64,000 nt of DNA from positions 78,001 to 142,000 of the IMG/VR virus record IMGVR_UViG_3300045988_169015; one strand, given 5' to 3'. Of the stretch, positions 1-41,288 are shown piece by piece (the stretch's first letter is position 1; every line of letters starts with the position of its first letter). Source of the stretch: a virus. The position numbers were made by a program, and so were the translations under genes. Under the pieces are notes generated by a model. The model was not told where the DNA came from, made no database searches, and saw only the letters and a program-made list of their open reading frames with translations.

Positions 1-209
1 TCCCTGTCATATTCGATATCTCCTCTTAATGAGACCTTATCAGGATCGATTCCGAATTCATTGGCGATGTTGCGGAAGCTGCGTCTTTCGCAGTAGCTCA
101 TATCAGGGTGTGCTTCATCTGAAACAGCGTGCTCGATCCTGTTGAAAAAATCTGTAAGTGCATCATCATTTCCAAAAAATCTTATCTGTGTAGAGCAAAT
201 GTTAGCCAT
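1..209 (-). CDS. hypothetical protein, N-terminal part only (gene runs off the left edge)
   Basis: ATG at 209-207 with GGAGG (rc of 218-222) 8 nt upstream; frame stays open to position 1; begins MANICSTQIRFFGNDD. Confidence 0.5.
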   Translation of the reverse strand, partial: MANICSTQIRFFGNDDALTDFFNRIEHAVSDEAHPDMSYCERRSFRNIANEFGIDPDKVSLRGDIEYDR

Positions 210-268
210 AATAGTTACCTCCAAATTCCATAAGCAGATAATCATAAAAACTTTTATCAGTGGTTGAA

Positions 269-493
269 TTACCATGTAATGCGTTTGGGTATAAATTCAA
301 TTTCTGCATTGCTATATGCAGTTATACAGTCTATCGGTGTATCAGGTTCGCCATCGAAATTTTGATATTTTGTGCATATTTTTGGCTCATGATCTTTGCG
401 AGGATCAACATCAACAAATAACTTTCCGTTTTCGTTTTTATAAACGGGTCTGTTGTAACTGTCGTTTCCAATATAAATTAATGTTATTCTCAT
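269..493 (-). CDS. hypothetical protein (74 aa)
   Basis: ORF track 269..496; ATG at 493 with GGAGG 8 nt upstream; its start overlaps the stop of a 14-codon upstream mini-ORF (493..537). Confidence 0.65.
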   Translation of the reverse strand: MRITLIYIGNDSYNRPVYKNENGKLFVDVDPRKDHEPKICTKYQNFDGEPDTPIDCITAYSNAEIEFIPKRITW

Positions 494-596
494 CAAAAAA
501 TCCTCCTATCAAATGTGAATTTTACTATCTTTTTCATTATTTATAACCTCCATTAAACAATTATTTTGTTTTGCAATTAGCATAACAAGATGTTTT

Positions 597-1683
597 CTAC
601 AAAGGTTTAGATGTATTGGAGGAGAGTGTCCGTGACACCCGCTGATAAGCGGGGTGTAACTGGACTGATCGCCTCCTATAGTACAAAGCTATTATGCTGA
701 TTGCAGTTATCAAAACCGAGCCTGGCGGCAATTTACTAAAACAGTTTAGATATGAGGGATCTGAAACGTCGGGCACTTGTCAGGTATGAATAGTGCCCGT
801 CGGTGTAAGATCCCGAAATGCAGTTTGCCAAACTCGGTTATGCAGCCGGAATATCCATGGTATCGCTAAAGGAATTTAGATATGAACCTTCTGAAAGAAG
901 AGTCATCGACGCTTCAATCAACGAAGTTGATTGAGGGTCATCGACTCATCTTTCGAAGGTGCAGTGCATATTGGATATCACGGTTACTGAATTTAATTGA
1001 AGTGCTTATTGTATTGCTGAAAGATTTTTAGATACAATGTCGTGGGTGCATCTTGAAGCTCGCACGTTTGCGAGCGGTTTTGTGATGATTCTCAATGACA
1101 TTATTGCATTTAAGGTGCTGCAATTATTTATATATATTTCCTGACCGCCGAATTTTCGCTAAAAGCATTTAGATAACATGTATCACGGAGATGAGAAACA
1201 TCCAGCAGTGTGCTGGATGGCTCTCATCTGAGGGATTACATGTTTGCATTAGGACGGACAGAAATCAGATCAGCAATTTCCGGCAGCAGTTGTTCGCTAA
1301 ATTGATTTAGATAATACCATCTTGTCTGAGGAAAGAGTACTGGGAGTGTCCCAGTACATTTCTTCGGACCAGATGCGTATTTGCATTTTGCCGCCGGGAA
1401 TTAAGAAATCATAACACCGAATTGTCGCTAAAGTAATTTAGATATAAAGAATCACGACAGCGGCGTGAAGCGATGGGTGACGCATCACGAGCGCCGAGGG
1501 AGGGATTATTGATTGCATTTTGTGTTATGAATTAGGAATTATTCGGCTTGTGGAAACATATGCTTACTAAAGATATTTAGATAAGAGGCAGCATAAACGA
1601 TCTCGAACTCTGGAGGTCTCCAGGATGAGAAGATCGTGTTGCTGCGGACTTGAATGTTGTTTCCGCAAGTCGTTTTGCAGTTA
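597..1683. repeat. tandem array of 8 structured units (conserved CTAAA-N4-TTTAG-ATA box + unit-specific long hairpin + TTGCAKT)
   Basis: TTTAGAT at 606, 745, 875, 1027, 1168, 1306, 1437, 1576 (period 130-152 bp). Units are approx 597-707, 736-824, 866-965, 1017-1110, 1159-1250, 1297-1387, 1428-1519, 1567-1683. The box is followed directly by a 65-95 nt imperfect hairpin, e.g. unit 5 ACATGTA..AGATGAGA..CATCCAGCA-gtg-TGCTGGATG..TCTCATCT..TACATGT. Each unit ends at TTGCA[TG]T (ATGCAGT and GTGCAGT in units 2 and 3). No consistent ORFs. Confidence 0.85.
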
Positions 1684-1983
1684 GTGATTTGCCGCTATAG
1701 CGTCCAGCTCAGATTGGAATTCGGACACAACATATTCGGCGTCGTAATGCCACTGCTCATCGTTGTTTCTGCAGTCCTCATACATGTCTAATATGTCACG
1801 CCAAAGTTCCTGATTTGCAGTTACCTTTTCCTGCGTCTGAGCGCCATACTCTTCTTCGATAGTCATCGCCATATCTTCTGCGTTGTATTCACTCTTGACG
1901 AATTTATAAACATCGAAAGCATCGTAAGAACTAAGCACTGTGCCGTTGACAACGTATTCGCCATTACTGTTTCGTGTTACCAT
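1681..1983 (-). CDS. hypothetical protein (100 aa), embedded between repeat units 8 and 9
   Basis: ORF track; SD ACGGAGG 7 nt upstream of ATG; its TAA stop is part of a TAACTGCAA motif copy. Confidence 0.75.
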   Translation of the reverse strand: MVTRNSNGEYVVNGTVLSSYDAFDVYKFVKSEYNAEDMAMTIEEEYGAQTQEKVTANQELWRDILDMYEDCRNNDEQWHYDAEYVVSEFQSELDAIAANH

Positions 1984-2036
1984 ATGTATTCCTCCGTTAC
2001 AATTATAATAGTATAACTCTCAGCCGCAGCGATTTA

Positions 2037-2153
2037 CTAAAACCATTTAGATTAAGAGTCCGTGATTTACGAGCATCGTACGGGAGTGATAACTGTCGTC
2101 GATGCTTATAAATCCGGATGATATGCACTTTGCTGACTGAGAGTTTGCAGTTA
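2037..2153. repeat. ninth copy of the structured unit, separated from the array by one gene
   Basis: CTAAA-acca-TTTAG-AT at 2037-2052; nested hairpin TCCG/GATTTA/AGCATCG...CGATGCT/TAAATC/CGGA; ends TTGCAGTTA at 2145-2153. Confidence 0.8.
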
Positions 2154-2158
2154 TTTTT

Positions 2159-2989
2159 TTATTCCATATTCGCAAAAGGATCGCTGAGGCTGATGTAGTT
2201 TTCCGCCATAGAAACCTTAAGTGCCTTATAGAAATAGTAGTCGGGTGACTGAATCTCGAGTCTGAGTTTTCTGAGGGCATTCTCTCTGGTGTAAACTTCA
2301 TCGAACCAGTGAAGAATAAATCTTCCGTCAAACATGATATAGTTTTTGAGAGTATAATAAGCGCCAGCCTTCTTGAAGCTGCGAATAAACGCATCAGCAA
2401 GCTCGTGGTTCTTGAAGTATCTGCCGCCCTTCATGCCTGTGCCTTCGGGGATATCAAACGCTCTCTTTGCAATTACCAGTTCAATAGCCTCTGCAATTAC
2501 AGCGAAGTCTGAGTATGACCAAGCGGTATTTATAAGGCTCTGAAGACTGGGCTGGAACTCCTTAGCGAAGTTCATAAATATATCGGCGATGCTATTCACA
2601 TCAAAGAAATGCTTGCGCTCTTCAAATGCAACGGGGTCGTTATCTTTGAGGTGAGCCAGCAGCTTAGCTTCCTTACAGGTATAGAGGATACTGTACTTAT
2701 AGGTATAGAAATTTGCGATTACCTGATTGATACTTGTGGTGACACTCTCCTGTCTCATAAGTCTAATGAACTGAGCGGAGATCCAACGTCTTGTTGTTCT
2801 GGGGTTATAGACTTCGCCGCAGATCGTCTTGCCAAAATACTTACCGTGCGCAGGAATTGAGTTATCATTGTCGGCAGGGATTGGAGTATTAGCCATATCG
2901 AGCATTGACTTTGCCACCAGTTTTGCGAACTCATTCATATCGAGGTTGCTGTTGTTAAGGTTAACGTTGTTCGTGTTGTTGTTAGTCAT
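2159..2989 (-). CDS. hypothetical protein (276 aa), third gene of the RT operon
   Basis: ORF track; SD AAAAGGAG upstream; no motif recognised. Confidence 0.8.
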   Translation of the reverse strand: MTNNNTNNVNLNNSNLDMNEFAKLVAKSMLDMANTPIPADNDNSIPAHGKYFGKTICGEVYNPRTTRRWISAQFIRLMRQESVTTSINQVIANFYTYKYSILYTCKEAKLLAHLKDNDPVAFEERKHFFDVNSIADIFMNFAKEFQPSLQSLINTAWSYSDFAVIAEAIELVIAKRAFDIPEGTGMKGGRYFKNHELADAFIRSFKKAGAYYTLKNYIMFDGRFILHWFDEVYTRENALRKLRLEIQSPDYYFYKALKVSMAENYISLSDPFANME

Positions 2990-3032
2990 AATAAATTTCT
3001 CCTTTTAATATGTATGGTTTATGGTTTTCGGG

Positions 3033-3476
3033 TTACTGGATATAGCTGCGATAGATTATGAAACTATCGGTCAGTTTACGGAACCAGCCGGGCGTTTCCC
3101 ATTTAAGGGTACCGTTAAGACTTCCGATTATAATAGCGGCACAAAGCTTTGCGTGCATTACATCTCGGTTATCGTTACGGTAAAAGTCGGTCATGCTCAG
3201 CTCATCGGCAGACAGAGGTTTAAACAGGTAAGTCTTGCGGCTGTTCTCACTGCTCGGTGACGAATGAATAAAGTTCTCGTAAAGAGTTACCAGATCGTCA
3301 TAGCCGGACACAGGAGACCCCAACGAGTCGATAACTTCGCCGCCTATCATATCAGCTACAAGCTTGCCGTTTTCCATTACGACACGCTTATCTATTCTGA
3401 TATTCTTTTTGACCAGATCGAACCTGAGCTTATGCCCCGATTCTGATTTTGCAATTAACGCATCATACAGCGTCAT
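3033..3476 (-). CDS. hypothetical protein (147 aa), translationally coupled to the RT
   Basis: ATG at 3476 with AAAGGAGG 9 nt upstream, lying inside the last 14 nt of the RT gene (track start 3485 is a GTG). Confidence 0.75.
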   Translation of the reverse strand: MTLYDALIAKSESGHKLRFDLVKKNIRIDKRVVMENGKLVADMIGGEVIDSLGSPVSGYDDLVTLYENFIHSSPSSENSRKTYLFKPLSADELSMTDFYRNDNRDVMHAKLCAAIIIGSLNGTLKWETPGWFRKLTDSFIIYRSYIQ

Positions 3477-4842
3477 GTATAACACCTCCTTTTATTTTGT
3501 TTATCTCGCTCAGCCAGAGTTCGTGGTCGGTATGATAGACTTTGTACATATGATTAAGGCTGTACCAACCGGCAGCCCTTACCATATCTATTCCGTCTGC
3601 CACAGTCCTTTTCCTGTTGGCTTTAACGTTTATTCCTTTCTGGAACTGGATCGTGTAATTGGGGTTATTATCTGTAGAACCGAGACCCCAAACCTTATTG
3701 CGACCTGTTATCACTGCTCTTAAACAATCTTTACAATACCTGTCTATCATGTCGATATCATGTTTGCAGTTAACGGTTCCGAACAGATACTGACACATGC
3801 CGAACTGGTTGCTGTTCTCTTCATATGCAAGGAACAGATACCTCTGGAGCCGCCTGCATATCCGCTTGGTCTCCGCTTCGGTAGCCGGTCTTTTGTGTTC
3901 TCTGCTCCACTGTATCGTTTCAGATTTTATATGCTGCTCGATACCTCTGAGAGTTTTTGCAGACACAGTTATCAAGTCGCCACGTATCTTAAAGCCCAGA
4001 AACTCGAACCAGTCTTTATCTGCCTGTAACGCTTTGACCTTTTTGGGATTAAGAGTTACACCCTTTGGTTCGAGCATCTGCTTTATAACTTCGAGGGCGT
4101 GGTCAGCTTCCCTGCCGAGGATTATGATATCGTCAGAATAGCGATAATAGATAACATCCATATTACTTATGGTCTCATCTATATCTCTCAAGCACAGGTC
4201 AGCCAGCAGACAGGCGATAGGATTGCCCTGACTTAGTGATTTATATCTGTATTCGGGTTTTCCGTTTATGATTATAGTATCGTCGTGATAATGTTTAATT
4301 ACTATGTTATCGATACAATCCTTATCGGGAGTTATGATATCGAGTGTTCTGTCAAGCGTTTCACGATTTACGGTATCAAAGAACTTGCTCAGGTCAAGCT
4401 TGTATCCTTTGTACCATTTCTTACGGTTCATCTCACTGACAAGAGCCTTTACGGTCTTGCCGGCTGACAGTCCCCTGCGGTAAGAAACGCAGTTAGGATG
4501 TATCAGGTGGTGAAAATCGTCGTAATACATCTTATAGAATGTATTGCACAGAACTCGGTCAAACGTTTCGAGAACTGCAAGCTTGCGGACTTCTTCAAAG
4601 TTTCGCTTCTCTGCTTCGGCGAATGTCAACCAGTTGTCTGTAAGCTTGTCAATGTACATCTCTACAGGGGCTTTGAACTCGATTTTGCAATTAGCGATAA
4701 GGTCGCCTGCAAGAGCCCACGCTGCATCTTGCGAAAACGTGGACAGCACGCACATATCGAGTCCCTTGCGGTCGATGTGCAAAAGCGCTCTTTCATGCAG
4801 CTCTCGGTCGTTCACAAACCGTTCAAGTTTATTCGGTTTCAT
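3463..4842 (-). CDS. reverse transcriptase (RNA-directed DNA polymerase), unclassified group
   Basis: 459-aa ORF. RT motifs read by eye: KLDLSKFFDTV (motif 2), SLSQGNPIACLLADLCL (motif 4), YYRYSDDIIILG (YxDD), LNPKKVK (motif 6), FEFLGFKI (motif 7), plus about 180 aa of C-terminal extension. SD GGAAAGGAG. Confidence 0.9.
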   Translation of the reverse strand: MKPNKLERFVNDRELHERALLHIDRKGLDMCVLSTFSQDAAWALAGDLIANCKIEFKAPVEMYIDKLTDNWLTFAEAEKRNFEEVRKLAVLETFDRVLCNTFYKMYYDDFHHLIHPNCVSYRRGLSAGKTVKALVSEMNRKKWYKGYKLDLSKFFDTVNRETLDRTLDIITPDKDCIDNIVIKHYHDDTIIINGKPEYRYKSLSQGNPIACLLADLCLRDIDETISNMDVIYYRYSDDIIILGREADHALEVIKQMLEPKGVTLNPKKVKALQADKDWFEFLGFKIRGDLITVSAKTLRGIEQHIKSETIQWSREHKRPATEAETKRICRRLQRYLFLAYEENSNQFGMCQYLFGTVNCKHDIDMIDRYCKDCLRAVITGRNKVWGLGSTDNNPNYTIQFQKGINVKANRKRTVADGIDMVRAAGWYSLNHMYKVYHTDHELWLSEINKIKGGVIHDAV

Positions 4843-4958
4843 TTATCTCTTCTCCTTTCCGATTATTCTTATTACAGTTATCAGTTCATCGTCATACAGA
4901 TAACATTCGCAGTCATCTCCATGACGGCATGATGTTGTCCCCTTGTCATCATATACAG

Positions 4959-5126
4959 TTATTCTTCTTCCACCTCCCAAGTATCTGTTTCTGCATCGTC
5001 AAGATAGAGATTACAGTTATTATAAAATGATTTCTCTGCCGCTTTCACCGCTGCATCTTTATTTTCAGCTTCGATGTGAAGCGTTGTATATCCAGTTACT
5101 AAAAGTGTTACACTGTACTTCTTCAT
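4959..5126 (-). CDS. hypothetical small protein (55 aa)
   Basis: Below the track cut-off. ATG at 5126 overlaps the upstream TGA (ATGA); GGAGG 7 nt upstream; MKKYSVTLLVTGYTTLHIEAENKDAAVKAAEK... Confidence 0.5.
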   Translation of the reverse strand: MKKYSVTLLVTGYTTLHIEAENKDAAVKAAEKSFYNNCNLYLDDAETDTWEVEEE

Positions 5127-5371
5127 TTATAAGCCTCCTCTACTGTATATGTAACGATGTTACCGTCGGTCAGACTTATTGTTTTCAGATTCTCCCTTTC
5201 GTCGCACGTTTCATCTACGTGTATGTGAAGGTTGTCATATTCCAATAAGTCAAGGCAGTATGCCCTCTGCAGTTCTTCAACTGCGGTATCATAATCATCG
5301 CAGAGCTGAACAAGAAGTATGCCGTCATAAGCACTGCGAATAATTACAGCATAACCTATCTGATTCATCAC
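5123..5371 (-). CDS. hypothetical protein (82 aa)
   Basis: ORF track; GTG 5371 or ATG 5368; packed head to tail with neighbours. Confidence 0.7.
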   Translation of the reverse strand: MMNQIGYAVIIRSAYDGILLVQLCDDYDTAVEELQRAYCLDLLEYDNLHIHVDETCDERENLKTISLTDGNIVTYTVEEAYK

Positions 5372-5374
5372 CTA

Positions 5375-5548
5375 TCACTTCTCCTTTATAGATATGATTA
5401 CATTTTTCCTAACCTTGAAATTATCGAAAACGAATAACATCTTTGTTTCCTTTTCAAATTTTCCGGTTAGAATAACGTCGCACGTCACCAGCGGTTTCGT
5501 ATGGACTTTTATTCTTTTGGTTATTTCATATGACTGACCTATGTTCAT
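5375..5548 (-). CDS. hypothetical small protein (57 aa)
   Basis: Below the track cut-off; ATG at 5548 preceded by TAACTGCAAAAGGAGAACGAGA; MNIGQSYEITKRIKVHTKPL... Confidence 0.55.
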   Translation of the reverse strand: MNIGQSYEITKRIKVHTKPLVTCDVILTGKFEKETKMLFVFDNFKVRKNVIISIKEK

Positions 5549-5567
5549 TCTCGTTCTCCTTTTGCAG

Positions 5568-6143
5568 TTACGGTCTTAATGACCACTTGACTGTTTTGAT
5601 AAATGTTTCCTCAAAATAGTTATCGAGGCCGAAGCGATAGTTATTATAGACTTCTTTCATATCGCTCTTACTGAACCCGGTTTCGTCAAGGATATCTTCT
5701 ATACCGTCGCTGCCGTAAAAACCGCCACAGCTGTATAATGGCCCATCGAATTCATACAAGGTGTACCCGTACACCTCGCCGCTCGCATACTGATTGAGTG
5801 CCTCTATTTCGCCCTGCAAAACTGTTTTCGCAGTTGCAATTGTAGAATCGTCAACCTTTCCGTATTCTTTTTCGATCTCATCATAGGTGACATAGATAAG
5901 ACCGCATATTCCGCTGTCCCATCTGTCGCCAAAATCCGAAAGTGAAAATGTTACTCCGCTATGTACGTAAGCATACACAGGATACTGAACTCTTTTGATA
6001 CCGGAAAGTGCAGTTGTCAGCTCCTGAAATGATTTGTAGTTATGCTTGTCTCCGTAAGCTCTTGTATCTCTTCCAAAGAGAATCAGATGTCCGAGACTGT
6101 CCCATTCTCTCGGTGATTCGCAGTCGTAATCTTTATAAATCAC
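5568..6143 (-). CDS. hypothetical protein (191 aa)
   Basis: ORF track; GTG start overlaps the TGA of an 18-codon upstream mini-ORF (GTGA); contains a CESPREWDSLG segment. Confidence 0.75.
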   Translation of the reverse strand: MIYKDYDCESPREWDSLGHLILFGRDTRAYGDKHNYKSFQELTTALSGIKRVQYPVYAYVHSGVTFSLSDFGDRWDSGICGLIYVTYDEIEKEYGKVDDSTIATAKTVLQGEIEALNQYASGEVYGYTLYEFDGPLYSCGGFYGSDGIEDILDETGFSKSDMKEVYNNYRFGLDNYFEETFIKTVKWSLRP

Positions 6144-6211
6144 AAGAGTGTTTTACCTTTTGTACCTACCATAACAATTTCATTATTGCATACCATATTG
6201 AATGCCTCCTA

Positions 6212-6913
6212 TTACCACCAAGGACAAAATACTGTCTTGCCATTTTCCCATTTTTCCAAAAACTCTTCACTTAAACCACCTGTCTTACATAAGGTCTCTA
6301 TTACCCTCTCGTCTCCACAATAAGAACAATTTTCCGGAAGTGCATCCCAACCCGCATCTGTCAATCCCTTACGCTGATAACAAATCTCTTCAAGATTTAC
6401 AACATAAACCACCTCATACTGCTCCACTATGTATTTACCGTTATATTTTCGTCCGCCACTTTCTGTGAAACTATTTTCGAAAATTACCTCTGCTTTGTAT
6501 GTAGCAGTTTCAACATCCTCTTCCTTTAATTCCACATTACATTTTATTGCAAAGCCATCATCTTGCTGTACAACAGTTGAATTGCCTGTTTTCACTTTAT
6601 AGTCTTTCTTAATGGTTATGTATAGCATATTAACTGTTTGATTATCACAATATTTTACACCACCATATTTAGATGTTATAACCATATCGCTTGTAAGACC
6701 CATAACATCTATAAGTATCTGCTTGATCTCTATATACCATTTCTTTATTTCACCTTTTACTAAATACTCTTTATATGGAAATGCAATATATTCCTCTTCG
6801 TTAAATAAGACCAGTCCATCTTCTTCTCGGGTATAAATCTCATCTTCCGTTAAACTAAAACCCTCTGCTATATCAGGTTTACTTACTTCATATAAATACA
6901 TATCAAGTCCCAT
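6212..6913 (-). CDS. hypothetical protein (233 aa)
   Basis: ORF track; SD GAAAGGAGAA upstream. Confidence 0.8.
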   Translation of the reverse strand: MGLDMYLYEVSKPDIAEGFSLTEDEIYTREEDGLVLFNEEEYIAFPYKEYLVKGEIKKWYIEIKQILIDVMGLTSDMVITSKYGGVKYCDNQTVNMLYITIKKDYKVKTGNSTVVQQDDGFAIKCNVELKEEDVETATYKAEVIFENSFTESGGRKYNGKYIVEQYEVVYVVNLEEICYQRKGLTDAGWDALPENCSYCGDERVIETLCKTGGLSEEFLEKWENGKTVFCPWW

Positions 6914-6933
6914 AGGTATTTTCTCCTTTCAAA

Positions 6934-7293
6934 TTATACAATAGCCCATGTCACACCGTGATAAACATCATTAAGGGTACAGATGGGTACGTAAAGTATT
7001 TCTGCATTATCCCAAGATTTAAGTTCATTTTCTTCGATAACTCTAATTTTTAAACGCAAGTCAAAATAATCGGCTACGTCTCCAACATCATCAGCTTTAC
7101 CCCACCATATCGCTTTGCGAAGTTGATAAGCAGCTGAAAGATATTTTACAATTCCATCACGAAACAATGGATAATTGTCATTGATATTAAATTCACCATC
7201 GTTATTTGTTATCTGTTCTATCAGATACTGTCCGAGACCGTTAAGCTCTCTACCAAAATCATTATCGTGCAGAGTTATTTCAAGATACTTCAT
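6934..7293 (-). CDS. hypothetical protein (119 aa)
   Basis: In-frame ATG at 7293 preceded by AAAAGGAGGACTGCAA; the track ORF 6934..7374 over-extends into the upstream gene. Confidence 0.7.
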   Translation of the reverse strand: MKYLEITLHDNDFGRELNGLGQYLIEQITNNDGEFNINDNYPLFRDGIVKYLSAAYQLRKAIWWGKADDVGDVADYFDLRLKIRVIEENELKSWDNAEILYVPICTLNDVYHGVTWAIV

Positions 7294-7307
7294 TTGCAGT
7301 CCTCCTT

Positions 7308-7709
7308 TTATGCAGTTCTTATCAGTCCGCCGAACATCGGTGTCACTCCAATGCTTCCCATATCGGAACACCATTCGTCGTCGAGGTTTATAACCATTGC
7401 AATAGGGTAGCCTGCTTTGATATCCTTGTTATCCATTTCCCATTCCTCTTCATACTGACTTACAAACAGCATAGAAAAGCAGCGCCCGAAATGTGTCGGG
7501 GTATAAATGGCGTGATATACAAGTGCATTGTGCTCGGCTTCAAATTTTTCGATTATCTTCTGTTCATCTTCATTTGCCCAGTAGAGAGCACCCATCTGCT
7601 TGCTGACGTTTACTCTCCCCTGCTTTAAGTCTGCGATTGTGTTTTTATGAAGCTTCAGTGCTTTCATTCTTTCGATTGCTTCTGTGAGCTGCTGTTCTTT
7701 TGTTACCAT
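7308..7709 (-). CDS. hypothetical protein (133 aa)
   Basis: ATG at 7709 with AAGGAGG 8 nt upstream (track start 7736 is upstream of the SD). Confidence 0.75.
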   Translation of the reverse strand: MVTKEQQLTEAIERMKALKLHKNTIADLKQGRVNVSKQMGALYWANEDEQKIIEKFEAEHNALVYHAIYTPTHFGRCFSMLFVSQYEEEWEMDNKDIKAGYPIAMVINLDDEWCSDMGSIGVTPMFGGLIRTA

Positions 7710-7780
7710 AATAATTTCCTCCTTACTCGGTTTCAATAAGATTTACAATGAGCATAATAATCGCAATTACAAAACTCAAA

Positions 7781-7990
7781 TTACCACTCCCTTGATAGTA
7801 CATCTCCATGAGGCATTCTTTTCCTCCTCCTGCAGATATCTTCGGCTATCTCCCGCATAAGCTCATAACTGTAATTCTCGGGACAGCTTTTTATATATTT
7901 GACAGACGACTTACAGATAGAACATCTGCCTTTTGTGTTATAAGCACACTCAGTGCAGATGCCGTTATCAAACCCTGTTTTCGTAGGCAT
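7781..7990 (-). CDS. small Cys-rich protein (69 aa)
   Basis: ATG at 7990 with AAAGGAG upstream, just after the stop of 7998..9380; CTEC...CSIC...C pattern. Confidence 0.65.
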   Translation of the reverse strand: MPTKTGFDNGICTECAYNTKGRCSICKSSVKYIKSCPENYSYELMREIAEDICRRRKRMPHGDVLSREW

Positions 7991-7997
7991 CACTCCT

Positions 7998-9380
7998 TTA
8001 TTTTTTGTAGTAATCAAGTTCATCATTGACGACGAACACGTACTCAGCTTCAGTTTCATCATACCTACAGATGGTATTGTTCTTAGTAAAGGCAACTGCG
8101 TCAATTGGAGTTACGATAATATTGAACTTATCATAATCTTCATCTTCATTGGAACTATAGTCAATAAGCTTGTAGATCTTATTATCTTTACCGATATAGA
8201 AATCGTCAGTACCGTCTGTTTCAATCATTGAACCGTCTGCAAGCATAAGATATTCAGAGTTGTAGAGCAGAGTTGCCTTTATCATATTGTCCCAGAGCGA
8301 CTCATCTTCTTCATAATCAGTTTCATCATCTGGGAAAGAATTGATAACAGTTTTACCGGTCTTGTCCTTGCCGTAGTATCTGCCGTAATCGAAGTCGTCA
8401 TATCCGTCATCGCCGTCCCAGCCGTAGTATCTTTTACTGGCATAACCTCGGTAGCTGTATATAGCTTCAATGTATTCGTACTTTGCAGTTTTACCCTCGG
8501 CTACATCCTTGATAATTGTATTTACTCTTTCGATAACGTTATAAAGCTCATCAAGAACGATATACTCGCTTGTGGTATGAGCATTGTAATATCCGCTGCT
8601 GAAGTTTACAGCTGCAACACCGAGAGCGGGAGCTACATATGAGATGTCAGAGCAGGAACCATATGCAGTCTTAAAGCCGTATGTGTCAATGAACTTCTCA
8701 AATTCGGGATTATCGCAGTCATAGTACACGCTGTCGTTTGAGCCTTTGCGATCCACTTCAATTATGAAGTTGATGTTTATGTCTTCGAGATTGATAATGC
8801 TATTACGGATATCGTCTGCGAAGTAATCAGCTCCCACACAGCCTATCTCTTCGTCTTCGGTAAAGAGAATGTAAGGCTTAATGCCATCTCTGATACTCAT
8901 AAGTGCAGTATAGATACCGCATCTGTCATCGCCGCCGATACCCTGCGGAGACCAGACGCAGCCCTTATCGGACATATAAATGTCTCGAACGGGTTCCTTA
9001 TGAACAGTATCCATATGAGCACACATCATTACGGGAACATTGCCTTTTGCGAATAAGTATCCGTCCGCATAGACAACATCATAACCGAAGCCGACGAGTA
9101 TCGAGTAAAGAAAATCTTTGAGAGCATACTGCTCAAGTCGGATTATCTTTTCAAACAGAGATGAAAGAGGTCTGAAATCTCTTGTGCTGCCGATGATAGA
9201 ATTATATTTTTCGATCATCTTATTTACGTTGTCGAGATCGGGTGTTTTGGGATTGAGGTTTCTTACGTGTTTTTCCGGTTCGTATTTCTTTACCTTGGGT
9301 GATAAAGTATTAAATGCGGAAATATTTGCGGTTGCGGGAGTGGTAGTAGTAGTTGTAGTAGTTGTTGTAGGCATAGCCAT
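7998..9380 (-). CDS. M20/M28/M42-type metallopeptidase-like protein with N-terminal poly-Thr tract
   Basis: 460 aa. Metal-ligand-like motifs CAHMDTVH, GGDDRCG, FTEDEEIG (remembered family pattern). T10 run at the N-terminus; Tyr/Asp-rich C-terminal half. Confidence 0.6.
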   Translation of the reverse strand: MAMPTTTTTTTTTTPATANISAFNTLSPKVKKYEPEKHVRNLNPKTPDLDNVNKMIEKYNSIIGSTRDFRPLSSLFEKIIRLEQYALKDFLYSILVGFGYDVVYADGYLFAKGNVPVMMCAHMDTVHKEPVRDIYMSDKGCVWSPQGIGGDDRCGIYTALMSIRDGIKPYILFTEDEEIGCVGADYFADDIRNSIINLEDININFIIEVDRKGSNDSVYYDCDNPEFEKFIDTYGFKTAYGSCSDISYVAPALGVAAVNFSSGYYNAHTTSEYIVLDELYNVIERVNTIIKDVAEGKTAKYEYIEAIYSYRGYASKRYYGWDGDDGYDDFDYGRYYGKDKTGKTVINSFPDDETDYEEDESLWDNMIKATLLYNSEYLMLADGSMIETDGTDDFYIGKDNKIYKLIDYSSNEDEDYDKFNIIVTPIDAVAFTKNNTICRYDETEAEYVFVVNDELDYYKK

Positions 9381-9402: not shown

Positions 9403-10680
9403 TTAGAAGCGGTCATAATCATCATAAGAATCGACATCGGGGGCATCGTCATCACAATTATCATTTGCAATTGACGAATCGCAGTTATCACAATAAAGTG
9501 AACTGCACATTATATCATTAACATCTGATGTTGAGCGGTACTTCTGTGCCCCGCATTCTATACAATATGTACTACCGCCGACTGATATTGTGTTGCTCTG
9601 CTTCGGCAAATCGGGATTATCATATTTAAGTACCGTATAAAACTTCCAGTCGGGGTACATAAACGTATCGGGGTTGCTTTTGATTATTGTGTGATTTGGC
9701 GTCCACGAGCCGGGGACACCTTCGCACTCCGAAAGAATTTTCTGGACACGGTTTCGATATATGAAATACGGATTGCTGTCGCTCTCACAATAGTCTATTG
9801 ACTTGGGGTATATTCTTTCGTGAACTATGTGGGGCGACTTATAGAATATCACTTGTCGGGTTATCTTCGGTATCTTCCACAATTCTCTTGATTCGAAGTT
9901 CTTATCATCAAGAGTGTAGAACAGAAGTGAAACCCTGTCAGTCAGATAGGACATACAACCTGCTTTGTGCTTTCCTTTATACTCAAAGCCATCGAAATTG
10001 CGGCTTGGAGTTAAACACATACAGTTGCTCCATGAGTTGCCATGGCTCATTGTAAGGTAATCCATAGGATTGACTGAGAGAACCGCAGTTCGCTTGAAGG
10101 CTCGGGGTGATATGCAGTCGCTTATCTTTGCGAAGATGCGGTTATACTCCGGGTGTTTTGTAAAACCGAAGTATTCATAGACTTTGTTCAGAATTCGTGT
10201 CGATTTTTGACCGCTCTTGAATTTAAATTCGGGAGCTATCAGATTTATTGTGGACACGATATCGCCATCAACAGTTTCCGAAAAACAATGCTGAGTTACA
10301 AATCGGAGAGCAGTGTCGTTATTGTTATTCATTGAAAAGAACATCCTGAACTCATCGGGGACGTTTCCACCGTGATTATCGAAGATGTGCTTTCTCAGTT
10401 TTGTAATTATGTTATATGAAACATCGCTGTTTTCAAAAATCAGTGCCCGCATCTCATCGCAGAAACTAAAGTAATTGCTGTCAAGTTCTCGCTTCTCGGT
10501 TATTGTAGTAACGATTGCGAGCTCGTCCTCTCGCCACATAGGGTGTTTGCGAAGTAACTCAAGAAGCGGAGTTTTATTTTTGCTCCACTCGTTTATGTTT
10601 TTGGCAACACCAAGCTCGGAGCAGGATATCCCGAGGCTTCTGAGATAATTGACTGCGGTTGTTGTTATGCTGTTTACCAT
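9403..10680 (-). CDS. hypothetical protein, shorter paralog of 10680..12752, Cys-rich C-terminus
   Basis: 425 aa. Shares the blocks LLELLRKHPMW, FGFTKHPEYNRIFAKISD, LSVNPMDYLTMSHGNSWSNC, GGSTYCIECGA with the upstream gene. ATG overlaps the upstream stop. Confidence 0.8.
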   Translation of the reverse strand: MVNSITTTAVNYLRSLGISCSELGVAKNINEWSKNKTPLLELLRKHPMWREDELAIVTTITEKRELDSNYFSFCDEMRALIFENSDVSYNIITKLRKHIFDNHGGNVPDEFRMFFSMNNNNDTALRFVTQHCFSETVDGDIVSTINLIAPEFKFKSGQKSTRILNKVYEYFGFTKHPEYNRIFAKISDCISPRAFKRTAVLSVNPMDYLTMSHGNSWSNCMCLTPSRNFDGFEYKGKHKAGCMSYLTDRVSLLFYTLDDKNFESRELWKIPKITRQVIFYKSPHIVHERIYPKSIDYCESDSNPYFIYRNRVQKILSECEGVPGSWTPNHTIIKSNPDTFMYPDWKFYTVLKYDNPDLPKQSNTISVGGSTYCIECGAQKYRSTSDVNDIMCSSLYCDNCDSSIANDNCDDDAPDVDSYDDYDRF

Positions 10681-25630: not shown

Positions 25631-26656
25631 ATGACAATAAATGAAATCAAGTTTGCGCTCCGCAGCTCTGAATACAGCTTCCTGTCGGATAATCCACATC
25701 TTGGCTCTAATATCATCTTGTTGACAGTCGGCGGTTCCCACGCTTACGGAACGGATACGCCCACCAGCGACTTGGATATCCGAGGATGTGCTCTGAATAC
25801 TCCAAGGGAGCTGCTTACCAGCGAAAATTTCGAGCAGTTTGTAAATGAGGAGACCGACACGACGATATATTCGTTCAACAAGTTGGTCTCACTGCTCACT
25901 AATTGTAACCCCAACACCATCGAGATGCTGGGAAACAAGCCAGAGCATTATTTCTATATCTCCCCTATTGGGCAGGAACTTATTGACAACGTTGAGCTGT
26001 TTCTCTCCCAGAAGGCAGCATACAGCTTCGGTGGGTATGCAACCGCTCAGCTTCGTCGCCTTGAAAATAAAGCCAACCGCCTTGTTGGTCAGGAACAGCT
26101 GGAACAGTATATCTATAACACACTGTCTCAAGTTGCCGAAAACTTTGAAGAAAAATATGGTATTCCTGCTGGTCAGCTTCGACTGTATATCGACAAGGCT
26201 GTAAATCCCGATATGGAAACTGAGATTTTCATGGACACTAACTTGACTCACTACCCTATCAGAGACTACGCCGGAATGTGGGATGAAATGAAGAGCATTA
26301 TCAAGTCTTACAATAACATCGGCTGTCGCAATAGCAAGGCTATCGAAAACGGAAGGCTTGGCAAGCATATGATGCACTTGATTCGTCTGTATCTCATGTG
26401 TACTGACATTCTTGAGGGACGAGGCGTAATAACATACCGTGAAAAGGATCGTGACCTGCTGATAGACATCCGCAACGGCAAGTACCTTGATGAAAATCAG
26501 CAGCCCACTTCCGAGTTCTATGAGATGATAGACGAATATGAAAAGAAATATCAGTATGCGAAAGAGCACACTGAACTCCCACCTAAGCCAAACTACAAGG
26601 CAATAAATGATTTCGTTCAGAGCGTCAATGAAAGAGTGATAAAAAATGAAGTATAA
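25631..26656 (+). CDS. RlaP-like (pol-beta superfamily) nucleotidyltransferase
   Basis: LLTVGGSHAYGTDTPTSDLDIRG is the GS..YG...SD.D signature remembered for the RNA-repair-associated RlaP family. Confidence 0.65.
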   Translation: MTINEIKFALRSSEYSFLSDNPHLGSNIILLTVGGSHAYGTDTPTSDLDIRGCALNTPRELLTSENFEQFVNEETDTTIYSFNKLVSLLTNCNPNTIEMLGNKPEHYFYISPIGQELIDNVELFLSQKAAYSFGGYATAQLRRLENKANRLVGQEQLEQYIYNTLSQVAENFEEKYGIPAGQLRLYIDKAVNPDMETEIFMDTNLTHYPIRDYAGMWDEMKSIIKSYNNIGCRNSKAIENGRLGKHMMHLIRLYLMCTDILEGRGVITYREKDRDLLIDIRNGKYLDENQQPTSEFYEMIDEYEKKYQYAKEHTELPPKPNYKAINDFVQSVNERVIKNEV

Positions 26657-27986
26657 AATTGATATGCCGCCCAATGCAAATGTAATCATTCATGCACTTC
26701 AAGATGCAGGTTACAAAGCATATATCGTTGGCGGCTGTGTCAGAGATAGTCTAATGAACAGATTTCCTCATGACTGGGATATATGCACTTCTGCGAGACC
26801 GGAGCAAACGCTTGAAGTGTTTAAAGATTACCGTGTTATCGAGACGGGGTTGCAGCATGGCACGGTAACAGTAGTCATTGATGGCGAGCAGTATGAATGC
26901 ACTTCGTTTCGTATCGACGGGGTGTATTCCGACAATCGCAGACCTGACAGCGTGACGTTCGTTGATGATCTTACAGAAGACTTAAGACGTCGAGATTTTA
27001 CAATCAATGCAATGGCATATAATGACGAAGAAGGTCTTATCGATCCGTTTGATGGAATGGGTGATATAAAGCGTGGCATAATCAGATGCGTTGGGAATGC
27101 GGCAGATAGGTTTAACGAAGATGCTCTCAGAATACTTAGAGCCATTCGATTTGCCGCACAGCTGCGTTTTGTTATTGAAGACAACACGTCTTCTGAACTA
27201 AACAGACAGAGGGATTCTTTAGCAAATATATCCACTGAAAGAATTACCAGCGAATTCAATAAAATCGTTATATCCAATCGATTTGTCACAATGTTAGTCC
27301 TATATTTTCACGTATTCACACAATTTATTCCAGAGCTTAAGGATATGCTTAAGTTTCCTCAGAATAATCCTCATCATATGTACGATGTACTTATTCACAC
27401 ACTTTATACAGCAGTATCCTGTCAGAACGATCTTATCCTTCGATTGGCGGCATTATTCCACGATATCGGGAAACCTCATTCATACCAAGACGAACCTGAC
27501 GGTATCAGACATTTTGTGGGACACAATATTGTCGGGGCGGATATGACAGATAAAATCATGAGGCGCTTGAAATATGACAGCAACACCCGAAATGCTGTTG
27601 TTCAGTTGATTTTATATCACGATTCTTCGTTTATAGCAAAGCCATCAGCTGTTAAGCGTTGGCTAAACAAAGTGGGAGAAGTTCAATTAAAGCGTCTCAT
27701 CGATCTTCGCAGGGCTGATATTAGGGGGCAGAAAATTCCTTATGATAGGGAGAAAATGAGGAAAATTGATGATCTTGCAGATGTTTTAAACCAAGTTCTC
27801 GAAGAACAACAATGCTTTTCTATGAAAGACCTCGCAATCAATGGAGATGATCTTATTGTCTTGGGTTTTGTCCCGGGCAAGGAATTAGGGGAGGTGCTCA
27901 CAGGGTTGTTAAACTCCGTAACAGATGACGCTCTTCCGAACGATAAAGAAACGCTTTTAAAGGAGGCTCAGAAATGGCTCAAGTAA
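26646..27986 (+). CDS. cca: CCA-adding enzyme / tRNA nucleotidyltransferase with HD domain
   Basis: GGCVRDSLMNRFPHDWDICT head motif; RRDFTINAMAY; HDIGKP HD motif. Confidence 0.85.
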   Translation: MKYKIDMPPNANVIIHALQDAGYKAYIVGGCVRDSLMNRFPHDWDICTSARPEQTLEVFKDYRVIETGLQHGTVTVVIDGEQYECTSFRIDGVYSDNRRPDSVTFVDDLTEDLRRRDFTINAMAYNDEEGLIDPFDGMGDIKRGIIRCVGNAADRFNEDALRILRAIRFAAQLRFVIEDNTSSELNRQRDSLANISTERITSEFNKIVISNRFVTMLVLYFHVFTQFIPELKDMLKFPQNNPHHMYDVLIHTLYTAVSCQNDLILRLAALFHDIGKPHSYQDEPDGIRHFVGHNIVGADMTDKIMRRLKYDSNTRNAVVQLILYHDSSFIAKPSAVKRWLNKVGEVQLKRLIDLRRADIRGQKIPYDREKMRKIDDLADVLNQVLEEQQCFSMKDLAINGDDLIVLGFVPGKELGEVLTGLLNSVTDDALPNDKETLLKEAQKWLK

Positions 27987-41213: not shown

Positions 41214-41288
41214 GGTGCGATGGTCAAGTGGTTAAGATGGTGCCCTTTCACGGCGTCGGCTCGGGTTCGAATCCCGATCGCATCCCCA
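41214..41288 (+). tRNA. tRNA-Glu (anticodon UUC), CCA encoded
   Basis: Hand-folded cloverleaf. Acceptor GGTGCGA/TCGCATC; anticodon stem GTGCC/GGCGT with loop CTTTCAC; T arm TCGGG-TTCGAAT-CCCGA; discriminator C, then CCA (41286-41288). Confidence 0.85.

What the first reader, a model, noticed from the sequence alone, without database searches (positions are those of the whole stretch)
597..2153. Nine tandem units of a conserved palindromic box plus unrelated long hairpins, downstream of a phage reverse transcriptase
Each unit reads (C)GCTAAA-N4-TTTAGATA, then immediately a 65-95 nt multi-segment imperfect hairpin, then TTGCA[TG]T, then a 30-45 nt spacer with a loosely conserved CCG..GAATT. The boxes are at 606, 745, 875, 1027, 1168, 1306, 1437, 1576 and 2046. 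The box and the flanks are conserved, but the hairpin sequences share no similarity with one another; only the fold is conserved. Unit 9 is separated from units 1-8 by a 100-aa gene, and the whole set lies two genes downstream of an orphan RT. I saw no consistent ORFs, no CRISPR-like identical repeats and no TR/VR pair. Two G:T pairs inside otherwise perfect stems (unit 3 CTTCAATCAAC/GTTGATTGAGG, unit 6 GAGG/CTTC) are tolerated only if the plus strand is the folded strand, i.e. antisense to the flanking genes. That is weak evidence. Hypotheses, in order of my preference: (1) a library of small structured RNAs used by the RT as templates or primers, since a small stem-loop followed by a long hairpin is retron msr/msd-like; (2) nine small RNAs, each with its own phage-specific promoter (the box) and the hairpin acting as terminator; (3) an array of protein-binding palindromes; (4) promoter/stem-loop recombination cassettes like T4 PeSLs. 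I know of no described element with this architecture.
Basis: partly seen in the sequence, partly recalled or inferred. Interest (0 to 1): 0.9.

Follow-up and report, generated by a model that had tools for sequence, protein, structure and literature searches.

The report
UG27 reverse-transcriptase template RNA array
The nine repeats are the template-RNA array of a phage UG27 reverse-transcriptase system, a kind described in a 2026 preprint in which each variable hairpin is copied into a short single-stranded DNA of still unknown use; it is real but not new.

Summary
Nine units, spaced 130-152 nt, each carry a conserved box and an unrelated long hairpin. Eight of the nine fold far better than shuffled sequence (z -3.6 to -7.6).

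The RT is not an orphan. It scores as RT_UG27 (E 5e-86), and the two genes between it and the array are the UG27 accessory proteins RTas346 and RTas337.

This architecture is described in bioRxiv 10.64898/2026.09.22.753630: variable ncRNA arrays next to UG27 RTs. [quoted passage not shown] Synthesis starts at an AUC and stops after a UUYA motif.

On the window's minus strand (the RT-coding strand) every unit reads: basal stem, U(G/U)CA loop, variable hairpin, AUC-N8-UUUAG, basal stem.

The same layout, always on the RT strand, occurs in relatives down to about 30% RT identity. One is the isolated Bacteroides phage BS-TP1.

Its strand call is wrong, and so is its claim that no such element has been described.

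The predicted cDNAs are plus-strand sequences of 74-90 nt. Their biological role is unknown.

The parts
3463..4842 (-). UG27-group reverse transcriptase, 459 aa, catalytic YSDD at residues 235-238
   Evidence: PADLOC RT_UG27 E 5.1e-86, next best UG26 at 9e-47. Pfam RVT_1 E 3e-21. Y235, D237 and D238 are invariant and S236 is in at least 90% of 37 homologues.
3033..3485 (-). Small accessory protein (sORF; RTas346 / Mestre cluster 346), 150 aa
   Evidence: PADLOC RTas346 E 7e-18. Homologues sit beside the RT in L121, L122, L123 and L233.
2159..2989 (-). Large accessory protein (bORF; RTas337 / Mestre cluster 337), 276 aa
   Evidence: PADLOC RTas337 E 1e-20. Homologues in L121, L122, L123 and L233.
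2015..2145 (-). ncRNA unit 9. AUC at 2052-2050, box 2037-2052, 5' loop UGCA at 2124-2127. Predicted cDNA is the plus-strand sequence 2050-2127 (78 nt).
   Evidence: Fold z -6.40. Motif positions. The middle of the hairpin is 61% and 79% identical to L119 and L120, against 94-99% in the flanking genes.
1681..1983 (-). 100-aa gene embedded between units 8 and 9; no known family; not known to be part of the system
   Evidence: No Pfam or PHROG hit. 46% identical to the 104-aa gene at the same place in L121. Absent from L122 and L123.
1544..1672 (-). ncRNA unit 8. AUC 1582-1580, 5' loop UUCA (plus TGAA 1651-1654). Predicted cDNA 1580-1654 (75 nt).
   Evidence: Fold z -5.56.
1409..1530 (-). ncRNA unit 7. 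The basal stem can be extended to 1399-1540. AUC 1443-1441, UGCA 1514-1517. Predicted cDNA 1441-1517 (77 nt).
   Evidence: Fold z -3.62. Inverted repeat I2, 1399-1422 / 1517-1540.
1274..1403 (-). ncRNA unit 6. AUC 1312-1310, UGCA 1382-1385. Predicted cDNA 1310-1385 (76 nt).
   Evidence: Fold z -7.59. The basal stem CCGGCGGCA/UGCUGCCGG has a G.U on the minus strand.
1137..1264 (-). ncRNA unit 5. AUC 1174-1172, UGCA 1245-1248. Predicted cDNA 1172-1248 (77 nt).
   Evidence: Fold z -7.62. Compensatory change CCAGCA/UGCUGG to CCAGGA/UCCUGG in L121.
994..1126 (-). ncRNA unit 4, apparently decaying in this genome. Box is AUCUAAAAAUCUUUCAG; two C.A mismatches in the basal stem. Predicted cDNA 1031-1108 (78 nt).
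   Evidence: Fold z only -2.30. L119 and L120 have intact boxes and paired basal positions. Hairpin 70-72% identical to L119/L120.
842..987 (-). ncRNA unit 3, the longest. AUC 881-879, UGCA 965-968. Predicted cDNA 879-968 (90 nt).
   Evidence: Fold z -7.00.
714..839 (-). ncRNA unit 2. AUC 751-749, UGCA 819-822. Predicted cDNA 749-822 (74 nt).
   Evidence: Fold z -6.61.
572..705 (-). ncRNA unit 1, last in the direction of transcription. Box is AUCUAAACCUUUGUAG; 5' loop UGUA (plus TACA 682-685). Predicted cDNA 610-685 (76 nt).
   Evidence: Fold z -6.14.

Best explanation
This is the non-coding RNA array of a phage-encoded UG27 (class 2 UG/Abi) reverse-transcriptase system.

**Shown here.** The RT, the small accessory gene, the large accessory gene and nine ncRNA units lie on the minus strand in that order. 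A 100-aa gene sits between units 9 and 8. Each unit, read on the minus strand, consists of:
1. a basal stem of 9-17 bp;
2. a 5' internal-loop motif, U(G/U)CA;
3. a 60-80 nt central hairpin of unrelated sequence;
4. the 3' internal-loop motif (U)AUC-UAAA-N4-UUUAG. In this clade it can also form a 5-bp mini-hairpin.

**Inferred from experiments on homologous systems.**
1. The array is transcribed together with the operon.
2. A complex of RT, sORF and bORF recognises the two internal-loop motifs of each unit.
3. It starts DNA synthesis at the AUC and copies the central hairpin.
4. It stops just after the 5' motif.
5. This releases nine different ssDNA hairpins of 74-78 nt, plus one of 90 nt, whose sequence equals the plus strand.

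**Unknown.** How synthesis is primed and what the cDNAs do.
For: - **Proteins.** RT_UG27 E 5e-86, RTas346 E 7e-18, RTas337 E 1e-20. YSDD is conserved.
- **Literature.** The preprint describes UG27 loci with three proteins and variable arrays of units of about 135, 149 or 167 nt. cDNAs are 50-100 nt and map to the central hairpins, starting at AUC within AUC-N7-UANAG and ending after UUYA. They are lost in YSAA, delta-sORF and delta-bORF constructs. Mestre 2022 placed UG27 in phages with a putative ncRNA.
- **Anatomy.** All nine units show the same layout on the minus strand. Unit spans are 122-146 nt.
- **Relatives.** The box lies on the RT strand in relatives with RTs 87% to about 30% identical and with different gene orders. 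Isolated Bacteroides phage BS-TP1 has 8 units with AUC-N8-UA(A/C)AG and UUYA, the same AUC-to-pentamer spacing as here.
- **Template length.** U[GU]CA peaks 70-75 nt upstream of the AUC in 23 of 46 distinct units.
- **Covariation.** 47 compensatory and 37 one-sided changes in homologous units of W, L119, L120 and L121.
- **Unit turnover.** L121 has one extra unit, and one unrelated unit in place of window units 4 and 3. The preprint reports the same kind of gain and loss.
Against: - No RNA or cDNA data exist for this phage. The product is inferred by homology from five other systems expressed in E. coli, reported in a preprint that is not peer reviewed.
- The published motifs are not matched letter for letter. 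Here the pentamer is UUUAG rather than UANAG. The 5' motif is UGCA in seven units, UUCA in one and UGUA in one, rather than UUYA.
- By my count the spacer is N8, in this window and in BS-TP1, against the N7 printed in the preprint.
- The authors' covariance model is not available, so membership of the RNA family could not be scored formally.
- No pseudoknot was found. The preprint does describe a pseudoknot-less class of about 135 nt.
- In the close-relative comparison 69 pair positions were broken, partly through misalignment of replaced hairpins.
- Central hairpins carry no strand information.
Confidence: 0.9

Rival explanations
1. Nine independent small-RNA genes on the plus strand. The box would be a phage-specific promoter and the long hairpin plus TTGCATTT a terminator.
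For: On the plus strand the hairpins are followed by T-rich TTTGCATTTT in units 4-7. Plus-sense folds have slightly lower energy in 8 of 9 units.
Against: - The asymmetric box is co-oriented with the RT gene in all relatives, 152 hits against 8. This holds whatever the gene order.
- Sigma-70-like promoters and intrinsic terminators are not enriched: 9 against 12.3 expected, and 6 against 4.2 expected.
- The energy asymmetry is a composition effect: shuffles give 2.15 kcal/mol against 2.7 observed, p = 0.12.
- Basal stems enclose the box, which would make no sense for a promoter. They favour the minus sense.
Confidence: 0.03
2. A DNA-level element: an array of protein-binding palindromes or cruciforms. 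Examples would be a replication origin, a packaging or partition site, or recombination cassettes like T4 PeSLs or integron attC sites.
For: CTAAA-N4-TTTAG is a perfect palindrome in most units. Units are gained, lost and replaced between related phages, as with cassettes.
Against: - The palindrome is not conserved in the family. L206 has AUCAUAAAAGAAUAAAG, and BS-TP1 has AUCGACACCAGUAAAG. Only the asymmetric AUC...U(A/U)NAG is kept.
- G.U-type mismatches exceed A.C-type in basal stems on one strand only, which points to RNA.
- There are no ORF cassettes between units.
- The element always travels with the three UG27 genes.
Confidence: 0.03
3. A retron-type msr/msd system, with branched msDNA primed from a 2'-OH of a conserved G.
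For: An RT sits beside structured RNA. The product of homologous systems is a hairpin ssDNA. A stem flanks the templated hairpin, as a1/a2 does in retrons.
Against: - The RT scores as UG27 at E 5e-86. Retron RT models score only about 1e-11 to 1e-12.
- There are nine tandem templates downstream rather than one ncRNA upstream.
- Two accessory proteins are required for synthesis in homologues.
- No branched RNA-DNA is reported.
Confidence: 0.03

Closest known systems
UG27 reverse-transcriptase systems with variable ncRNA arrays (bioRxiv 10.64898/2026.09.22.753630, 2026; UG27 group defined in Mestre et al., NAR 2022, PMC9226505)
   Same: - Three proteins: RT, small and large accessory protein.
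- Phage-borne.
- Tandem units of about 130 nt on the RT strand.
- Each unit is a basal stem, an asymmetric internal loop carrying short conserved motifs, and a central hairpin of unrelated sequence.
- AUC lies at the 3' foot of the hairpin.
- Extra units occur in a neighbouring intergenic region.
- Units are gained and lost between close relatives.
   Different: - The array lies after the large accessory gene rather than between the RT and the small one.
- The 3' pentamer is UUUAG, not UANAG, which makes a perfect CUAAA/UUUAG mini-hairpin.
- The 5' motif is mostly UGCA, not UUYA.
- No pseudoknot was seen, so it fits the short class of about 135 nt.
- No experimental data exist for this locus.
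Bacteroides phage BS-TP1 (PQ571274.1), an isolated phage
   Same: It carries a UG27-like RT (33% identical) followed by eight units on the RT strand. These have AUC-N8-UA(A/C)AG and UUYA motifs and the same AUC-to-pentamer spacing.
   Different: - Units are longer.
- The array sits between the RT and the accessory genes.
- The host is Bacteroides.
- The RT gene is annotated 'tail protein' in the record, and the array is not annotated.
Retrons (msr/msd with a retron RT)
   Same: An RT copies a hairpin-forming part of an adjacent structured ncRNA into a short ssDNA. A stem encloses the template.
   Different: - The RT belongs to a different clade.
- A retron has one ncRNA, not an array.
- Retron priming uses the 2'-OH of a branching G, which is not known for UG27.
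- Retrons are bacterial defence systems; this element is phage-encoded.
Other class 2 UG/Abi RTs with ncRNA templates (DRT2, DRT3, DRT9)
   Same: They belong to the same RT class. By PADLOC the next-best hits are UG26, UG17, Drt3a, Drt9 and Drt2. Each depends on a cognate ncRNA.
   Different: Per the preprint, those systems make long or concatemeric products from one ncRNA and act in host defence. UG27 makes many short discrete hairpin cDNAs and shows no defence-island association.
CRISPR arrays and integron attC sites (analogy only)
   Same: Conserved short motifs alternate with variable segments. In attC sites the fold is conserved while the sequence is not.
   Different: There are no identical repeats, no cas or integrase genes, and no cassette ORFs. 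The variable parts are self-complementary hairpins.

Membership tests
UG27 RT system with ncRNA array | RT belongs to the UG27 group of class 2 UG/Abi RTs | tested here: met
   PADLOC RT_UG27 E 5.1e-86, 287 bits, covering profile positions 65-416 of 420. Next best is UG26 at 9e-47.
UG27 RT system with ncRNA array | Catalytic YSDD motif (mutated to YSAA in the published control) | tested here: met
   RYSDDI at residues 234-239. R234, Y235, D237 and D238 are invariant and S236 is in at least 90% of 37 homologues.
UG27 RT system with ncRNA array | Small and large accessory proteins (clusters 346 and 337) encoded beside the RT | tested here: met
   RTas346 E 7e-18 for 3033-3485. RTas337 E 1e-20 for 2159-2989. 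Both are conserved next to the RT in L121, L122, L123 and L233.
UG27 RT system with ncRNA array | Tandem array of units of about 135-167 nt, on the RT-coding strand, with diverse sequences and a common fold | tested here: met
   Nine units of 122-146 nt on the minus strand. Eight have z -3.6 to -7.6. The same box on the RT strand gives 152 hits against 8 on the opposite strand in related loci.
UG27 RT system with ncRNA array | Main hairpin interrupted by an asymmetric internal loop that brackets the central stem | tested here: met
   The minimum-energy folds of units 1-3 and 5-9 show a basal stem, a 5' loop of 8-14 nt, the central hairpin and a 3' loop of 25-30 nt.
UG27 RT system with ncRNA array | 3' motif AUC-N7-UANAG with AUC at the foot of the central hairpin (the cDNA start) | tested here: inconclusive
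   AUC lies 1-5 nt after the hairpin in all nine units. The rest reads N8-UUUAG (UUCAG in unit 4, UGUAG in unit 1). Graded intermediates link it to the published form:
- L122: AUC-N8-UAAAG
- L123: AUC-N8-UUAAG
- BS-TP1: AUC-N8-UA(A/C)AG
- L233: AUG-N7-UA(A/U)AG
. It is homologous, but not a literal match to the printed consensus.
UG27 RT system with ncRNA array | [quoted passage not shown] | tested here: inconclusive
   UGCA in seven units, UUCA in unit 8 and UGUA in unit 1. Relatives L123, L204 and BS-TP1 have UUCA or UUUA. The position is conserved, 70-75 nt before the AUC.
UG27 RT system with ncRNA array | Pseudoknot (in the 149- and 167-nt classes; absent in the class of about 135 nt) | tested here: not met
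   I inspected the units by eye. No conserved complementarity links the N4 loop, or the 3' loop, to other parts of the unit. Unit size fits the published pseudoknot-less class. No formal pseudoknot search was run.
UG27 RT system with ncRNA array | RT-, sORF- and bORF-dependent ssDNA of 50-100 nt mapping to the central hairpins | not testable with these tools
   Only predicted: 74-78 nt for eight units and 90 nt for unit 3.
UG27 RT system with ncRNA array | Match to the authors' covariance models | not testable with these tools
   No supplementary files are held for the preprint. Rfam 15 has no such family; the only hit in the window is the tRNA.
Retron | RT of the retron clade with a single msr/msd ncRNA next to it | tested here: not met
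   Retron RT models score about 1e-11 to 1e-12, against 5e-86 for UG27. There are nine templates, downstream of the genes.
Retron | 2'-5' branched msDNA primed from a conserved G | not testable with these tools
   This needs biochemistry.
Promoter/stem-loop cassettes (T4 PeSL) or sRNA genes with own promoter and terminator | Promoter consensus upstream, and an intrinsic terminator formed by the hairpin | tested here: not met
   Sigma-70-like sites: 9 against 12.3 expected. Terminator-like sites: 6 against 4.2 expected, and none at the unit ends. Non-sigma-70 promoters are not covered by that scan.

The most novel reading that the evidence does not exclude
The array may be a library that diversifies in place. 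The templated segment keeps a near-fixed length (74-78 nt in eight of nine units, with U[GU]CA 70-75 nt before the AUC across clades). Individual hairpin stems are rewritten by runs of compensatory changes between phages that are otherwise 94-99% identical: unit 9 is 61-79% identical, unit 4 70-72% and unit 6 89%. That would make the cDNA hairpins fast-evolving specificity determinants, for example decoys or aptamers aimed at variable host defence or DNA-binding proteins, rather than a fixed structural product.
Probability: 0.25. Interest if true: 0.7.

Novelty: already known. Interest (0 to 1): 0.35.

Why it matters
The element is a real and unusual system: a phage RT that turns an array of unrelated RNA hairpins into short ssDNA hairpins. 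The kind was published in September 2026 and its proteins were catalogued in 2022, so this window adds a member, not a discovery.

Its remaining value is practical:
- It gives nucleotide-level predictions for nine cDNAs.
- It is a clade-specific variant of the recognition motifs (UGCA ... AUC-N8-UUUAG).
- It comes with natural comparisons, three near-identical phages and one with an RT 87% identical. These show which hairpins are kept, replaced or decaying.

Those comparisons could help with the open question of what the cDNAs do.

Tried and rejected
- **Rfam and tRNA scans.** Only tRNA-Glu at 41214 was found; nothing in the array.
- **Nucleotide search of 1-8000 against GenBank phages.** No match.
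- **Exact-box scan of IMG/VR.** Single chance hits everywhere. Only the close relative L029/L120 had a cluster.
- **Strand call from hairpin thermodynamics.** The plus (cDNA) sense is more stable in 35 of 44 distinct central hairpins. Shuffles with the same composition give almost the same bias, and z-scores are equal at -7.2 and -7.1. I rejected this as strand evidence.
- **Strand call from 1x1 mismatches in central hairpins.** G.U 8, A.C 8: uninformative.
- **Targets of the hairpins within the phage.** Short-word BLAST of the nine hairpins against the other 62 kb gave only chance-level matches of 12 nt or less, best E about 0.16.
- **Pseudoknot between the N4 loop and the 5' loop.** Only unit 5 could pair; rejected.
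- **Self-built covariance model.** Not built. Stem positions shift between units, so MAFFT columns would not carry a consistent structure. I used regex plus folding instead.
- **Hyper-variability in a second clade (L206 group).** One unit region (10140-10420) is strongly variable, but so are some coding stretches; inconclusive.
- **P0072-type 400-aa RTs and most of L129-L203 from genome contigs.** These are a different RT group beside SusC/SusD genes, not UG27, and were set aside.
Full report
**1. Observation**

Seven of the eight exact TTTAGATA copies in the 64-kb window lie at 745-1583 on the plus strand. They are spaced 130-152 nt apart. Variants lie at 606 and 2046. The intervening hairpins share no sequence with one another.

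**2. Context**

All genes from 1 to about 17000 are on the minus strand.
- The 459-aa RT (3463-4842) scores as PADLOC RT_UG27, E 5e-86.
- The next two genes score as RTas346 (150 aa, 3033-3485, E 7e-18) and RTas337 (276 aa, 2159-2989, E 1e-20). The RT is therefore not an orphan: these are its two accessory proteins.
- The catalytic motif is YSDD.
- The window is a tailed phage, with large terminase, portal and tape-measure genes.

**3. Literature**

Mestre et al. 2022 (PMC9226505) defined UG27 as a class 2 UG/Abi RT. It is found mainly in gut phages, with clusters 346 and 337 and a putative structured ncRNA.

[quoted passage not shown] Its main points:
- Units are about 135, 149 or 167 nt.
- Central hairpins are sequence-diverse.
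- Short conserved motifs lie in an asymmetric internal loop.
- Extra units can occur in neighbouring intergenic regions.
- Units are gained and lost between relatives.

In five systems expressed in E. coli, ssDNAs of 50-100 nt mapped to the central hairpins. Synthesis started at the AUC of AUC-N7-UANAG and ended after UUYA. It required RT activity and both accessory proteins. The function of the cDNAs is stated to be unknown.

**4. Anatomy on the minus strand**

Read in the RT sense, each unit has four parts:
1. a 5' basal arm;
2. a loop with U(G/U)CA (UGCA in seven units, UUCA in unit 8, UGUA in unit 1);
3. a central hairpin;
4. (U)AUC-UAAA-N4-UUUAG(C/U)(G/A)A, a short linker and the 3' basal arm.

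Strand folding returns this layout for eight of nine units, with z -3.6 to -7.6. Unit 4 has z -2.3. It also has a degenerate box and two C.A mismatches in its basal stem where L119 and L120 pair, so it looks decayed.

The units span 572-705, 714-839, 842-987, 994-1126, 1137-1264, 1274-1403, 1409-1530, 1544-1672 and 2015-2145. Its TTGCAGTT in units 1, 8 and 9 lies in or outside the basal stem.

**5. Strand**

- Over 44 distinct central hairpins from this and related loci, single mismatches are G.U 8 and A.C 8.
- The lower plus-sense energy (35 of 44) is reproduced by composition-matched shuffles: null 2.15 against 2.7 kcal/mol observed, p = 0.12. The z-scores are -7.2 and -7.1.
- Basal stems lean to the RT sense: G.U 15 against A.C 6, and the RT sense is more stable in 30 of 44 (p = 0.02).

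The decisive evidence is orientation. In 1.2 Mb of loci oriented by their RT gene, the asymmetric box occurs 152 times on the RT strand and 8 times on the other.

**6. Relatives**

| Locus | RT identity | Units and layout |
|---|---|---|
| L119, L120 | 97-98% | The same nine units |
| L121 | 87% | RT-sORF-bORF, two units, a 104-aa gene, seven units |
| L122, L123 | 48%, 42% | Units between RT and sORF and after bORF; AUC-N8-U(A/U)AAG and UUCAA |
| L206 clade | about 35% | AUCAUAAA...UA(A/G)AG |
| L233 | 30% | AUG-N7-UA(A/U)AG and UUUA |
| Bacteroides phage BS-TP1 | 33% | Eight units in a 1.35-kb gap after its RT (annotated 'tail protein'); AUC-N8-UA(A/C)AG and UUYA |

The AUC-to-pentamer spacing in BS-TP1 is the same as here. 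sORF and bORF homologues accompany the RT in L121, L122, L123 and L233.

**7. Covariation and turnover**

Alignments of homologous units from the window, L119, L120 and L121 show 47 compensatory and 37 one-sided changes. They also show 69 broken pairs, many of them in replaced hairpins.

Seven window units are syntenic with L121. L121 has one extra unit, and one unrelated unit where the window has units 4 and 3.

Against L119 and L120, genes are 94-99% identical and most hairpins 95-100%. Unit 9 is 61% and 79% identical, unit 4 is 72% and 70%, and unit 6 is 89%. Unit 1 is also 89% against L120. The feet of these hairpins are conserved while the stems are rewritten.

**8. Mechanism**

Shown: the gene set, the strand, the fold, the motifs and their conservation.

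Inferred by homology:
- co-transcription with the operon;
- recognition of the internal-loop motifs by the three-protein complex;
- initiation at AUC and termination after U(G/U)CA.

The predicted cDNAs equal the plus strand: 2050-2127, 1580-1654, 1441-1517, 1310-1385, 1172-1248, 1031-1108, 879-968, 749-822 and 610-685. That is 74-78 nt for eight units and 90 nt for unit 3. Across 46 distinct units, U[GU]CA peaks 70-75 nt before the AUC (23 units). Priming and biological role are unknown.

**9. Rivals**

- Promoter/terminator units: there is no enrichment of either signal, and the orientation data argue against it.
- DNA palindromes: the palindrome is clade-specific.
- Retron: the RT belongs to a different clade.
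- Self-targeting: the hairpins have no significant match elsewhere in the window.

**10. Verdict**

This is a real element. It is correctly sensed as an RT template library, but on the opposite strand from the one proposed. It is a member of a kind already described, and the interest is moderate to low. The in-place rewriting of single hairpins and the near-constant template length are the only points that may go beyond the preprint. I followed them up only partly.

Noticed in passing
window 2057-2118, 1036-1102, 1314-1380 (central hairpins of units 9, 4, 6) versus L119/L120: Between phages that are 94-99% identical in the flanking genes, these three hairpins are only 61-79%, 70-72% and 89% identical. 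The stem feet are conserved and the stems are rewritten by compensatory changes. The other six hairpins are 89-100% identical (only unit 1 against L120 falls below 95%).
   Followed up: partly
window 610-2127, and units in L121, L122, L123, L204: The distance from the AUC start to the U(G/U)CA stop motif is nearly constant. It is 74-78 nt in eight of nine window units. There is a peak at -75 to -70 in 23 of 46 distinct units, although the hairpin sequences are unrelated.
   Followed up: partly
window 994-1126 (unit 4): This unit looks degenerate in this genome. Its box is AUCUAAAAAUCUUUCAG, its basal stem has two C.A mismatches, and its fold z is only -2.3. L119 and L120 keep intact versions.
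   Followed up: yes
L235 4797-7409 (Bacteroides phage BS-TP1, PQ571274.1 79351-81963): The UG27-type RT gene of this isolated phage is annotated 'tail protein'. The 1.35-kb gap after it, which holds eight ncRNA units, carries no annotation.
   Followed up: partly
L230 3136-6203; also L231, L232 and many of L129-L203: A different group of 400-aa RTs, 24-29% identical to the query, sits in Bacteroidales and Prevotella chromosomes. Each lies next to a 204-aa gene and SusC/SusD genes, with about 1.1 kb of uncalled sequence upstream. It is not UG27, and I did not examine it for ncRNA.
   Followed up: no
window 1675, 2145, 5562 and others (TTGCAGTT on the + strand): TTGCAKTT occurs 21 times against 10.5 expected, 15 of them on the plus strand. 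On the minus strand TAACTGCAAA directly overlaps or follows the stop codons of the genes ending at 1681, 2159 and 5568. It resembles the unit 5'-loop motif.
   Followed up: no
window about 220-270 versus L119 10586-12134: L119 carries about 1.5 kb of extra DNA just downstream of the array, where the window and L120 are contiguous. The neighbouring ORF (window 1-219) is only 59% identical to L119.
   Followed up: no
window 26646-27986 and 41214-41288: The phage encodes a tRNA nucleotidyltransferase (CCA-adding enzyme) homologue (phrog_2244, E 8e-73) and one tRNA-Glu(UUC).
   Followed up: no
window 7998-9380 (minus strand): A 460-aa protein with weak M20/M28 peptidase similarity (phrog_34186, E 2e-50). 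It starts with a run of eleven threonines.
   Followed up: no
central hairpins, RT sense (44 distinct units): C exceeds G (825 against 650) on the RNA sense, so the predicted cDNAs are G-rich relative to C. This alone explains why the cDNA sense folds more stably.
   Followed up: yes
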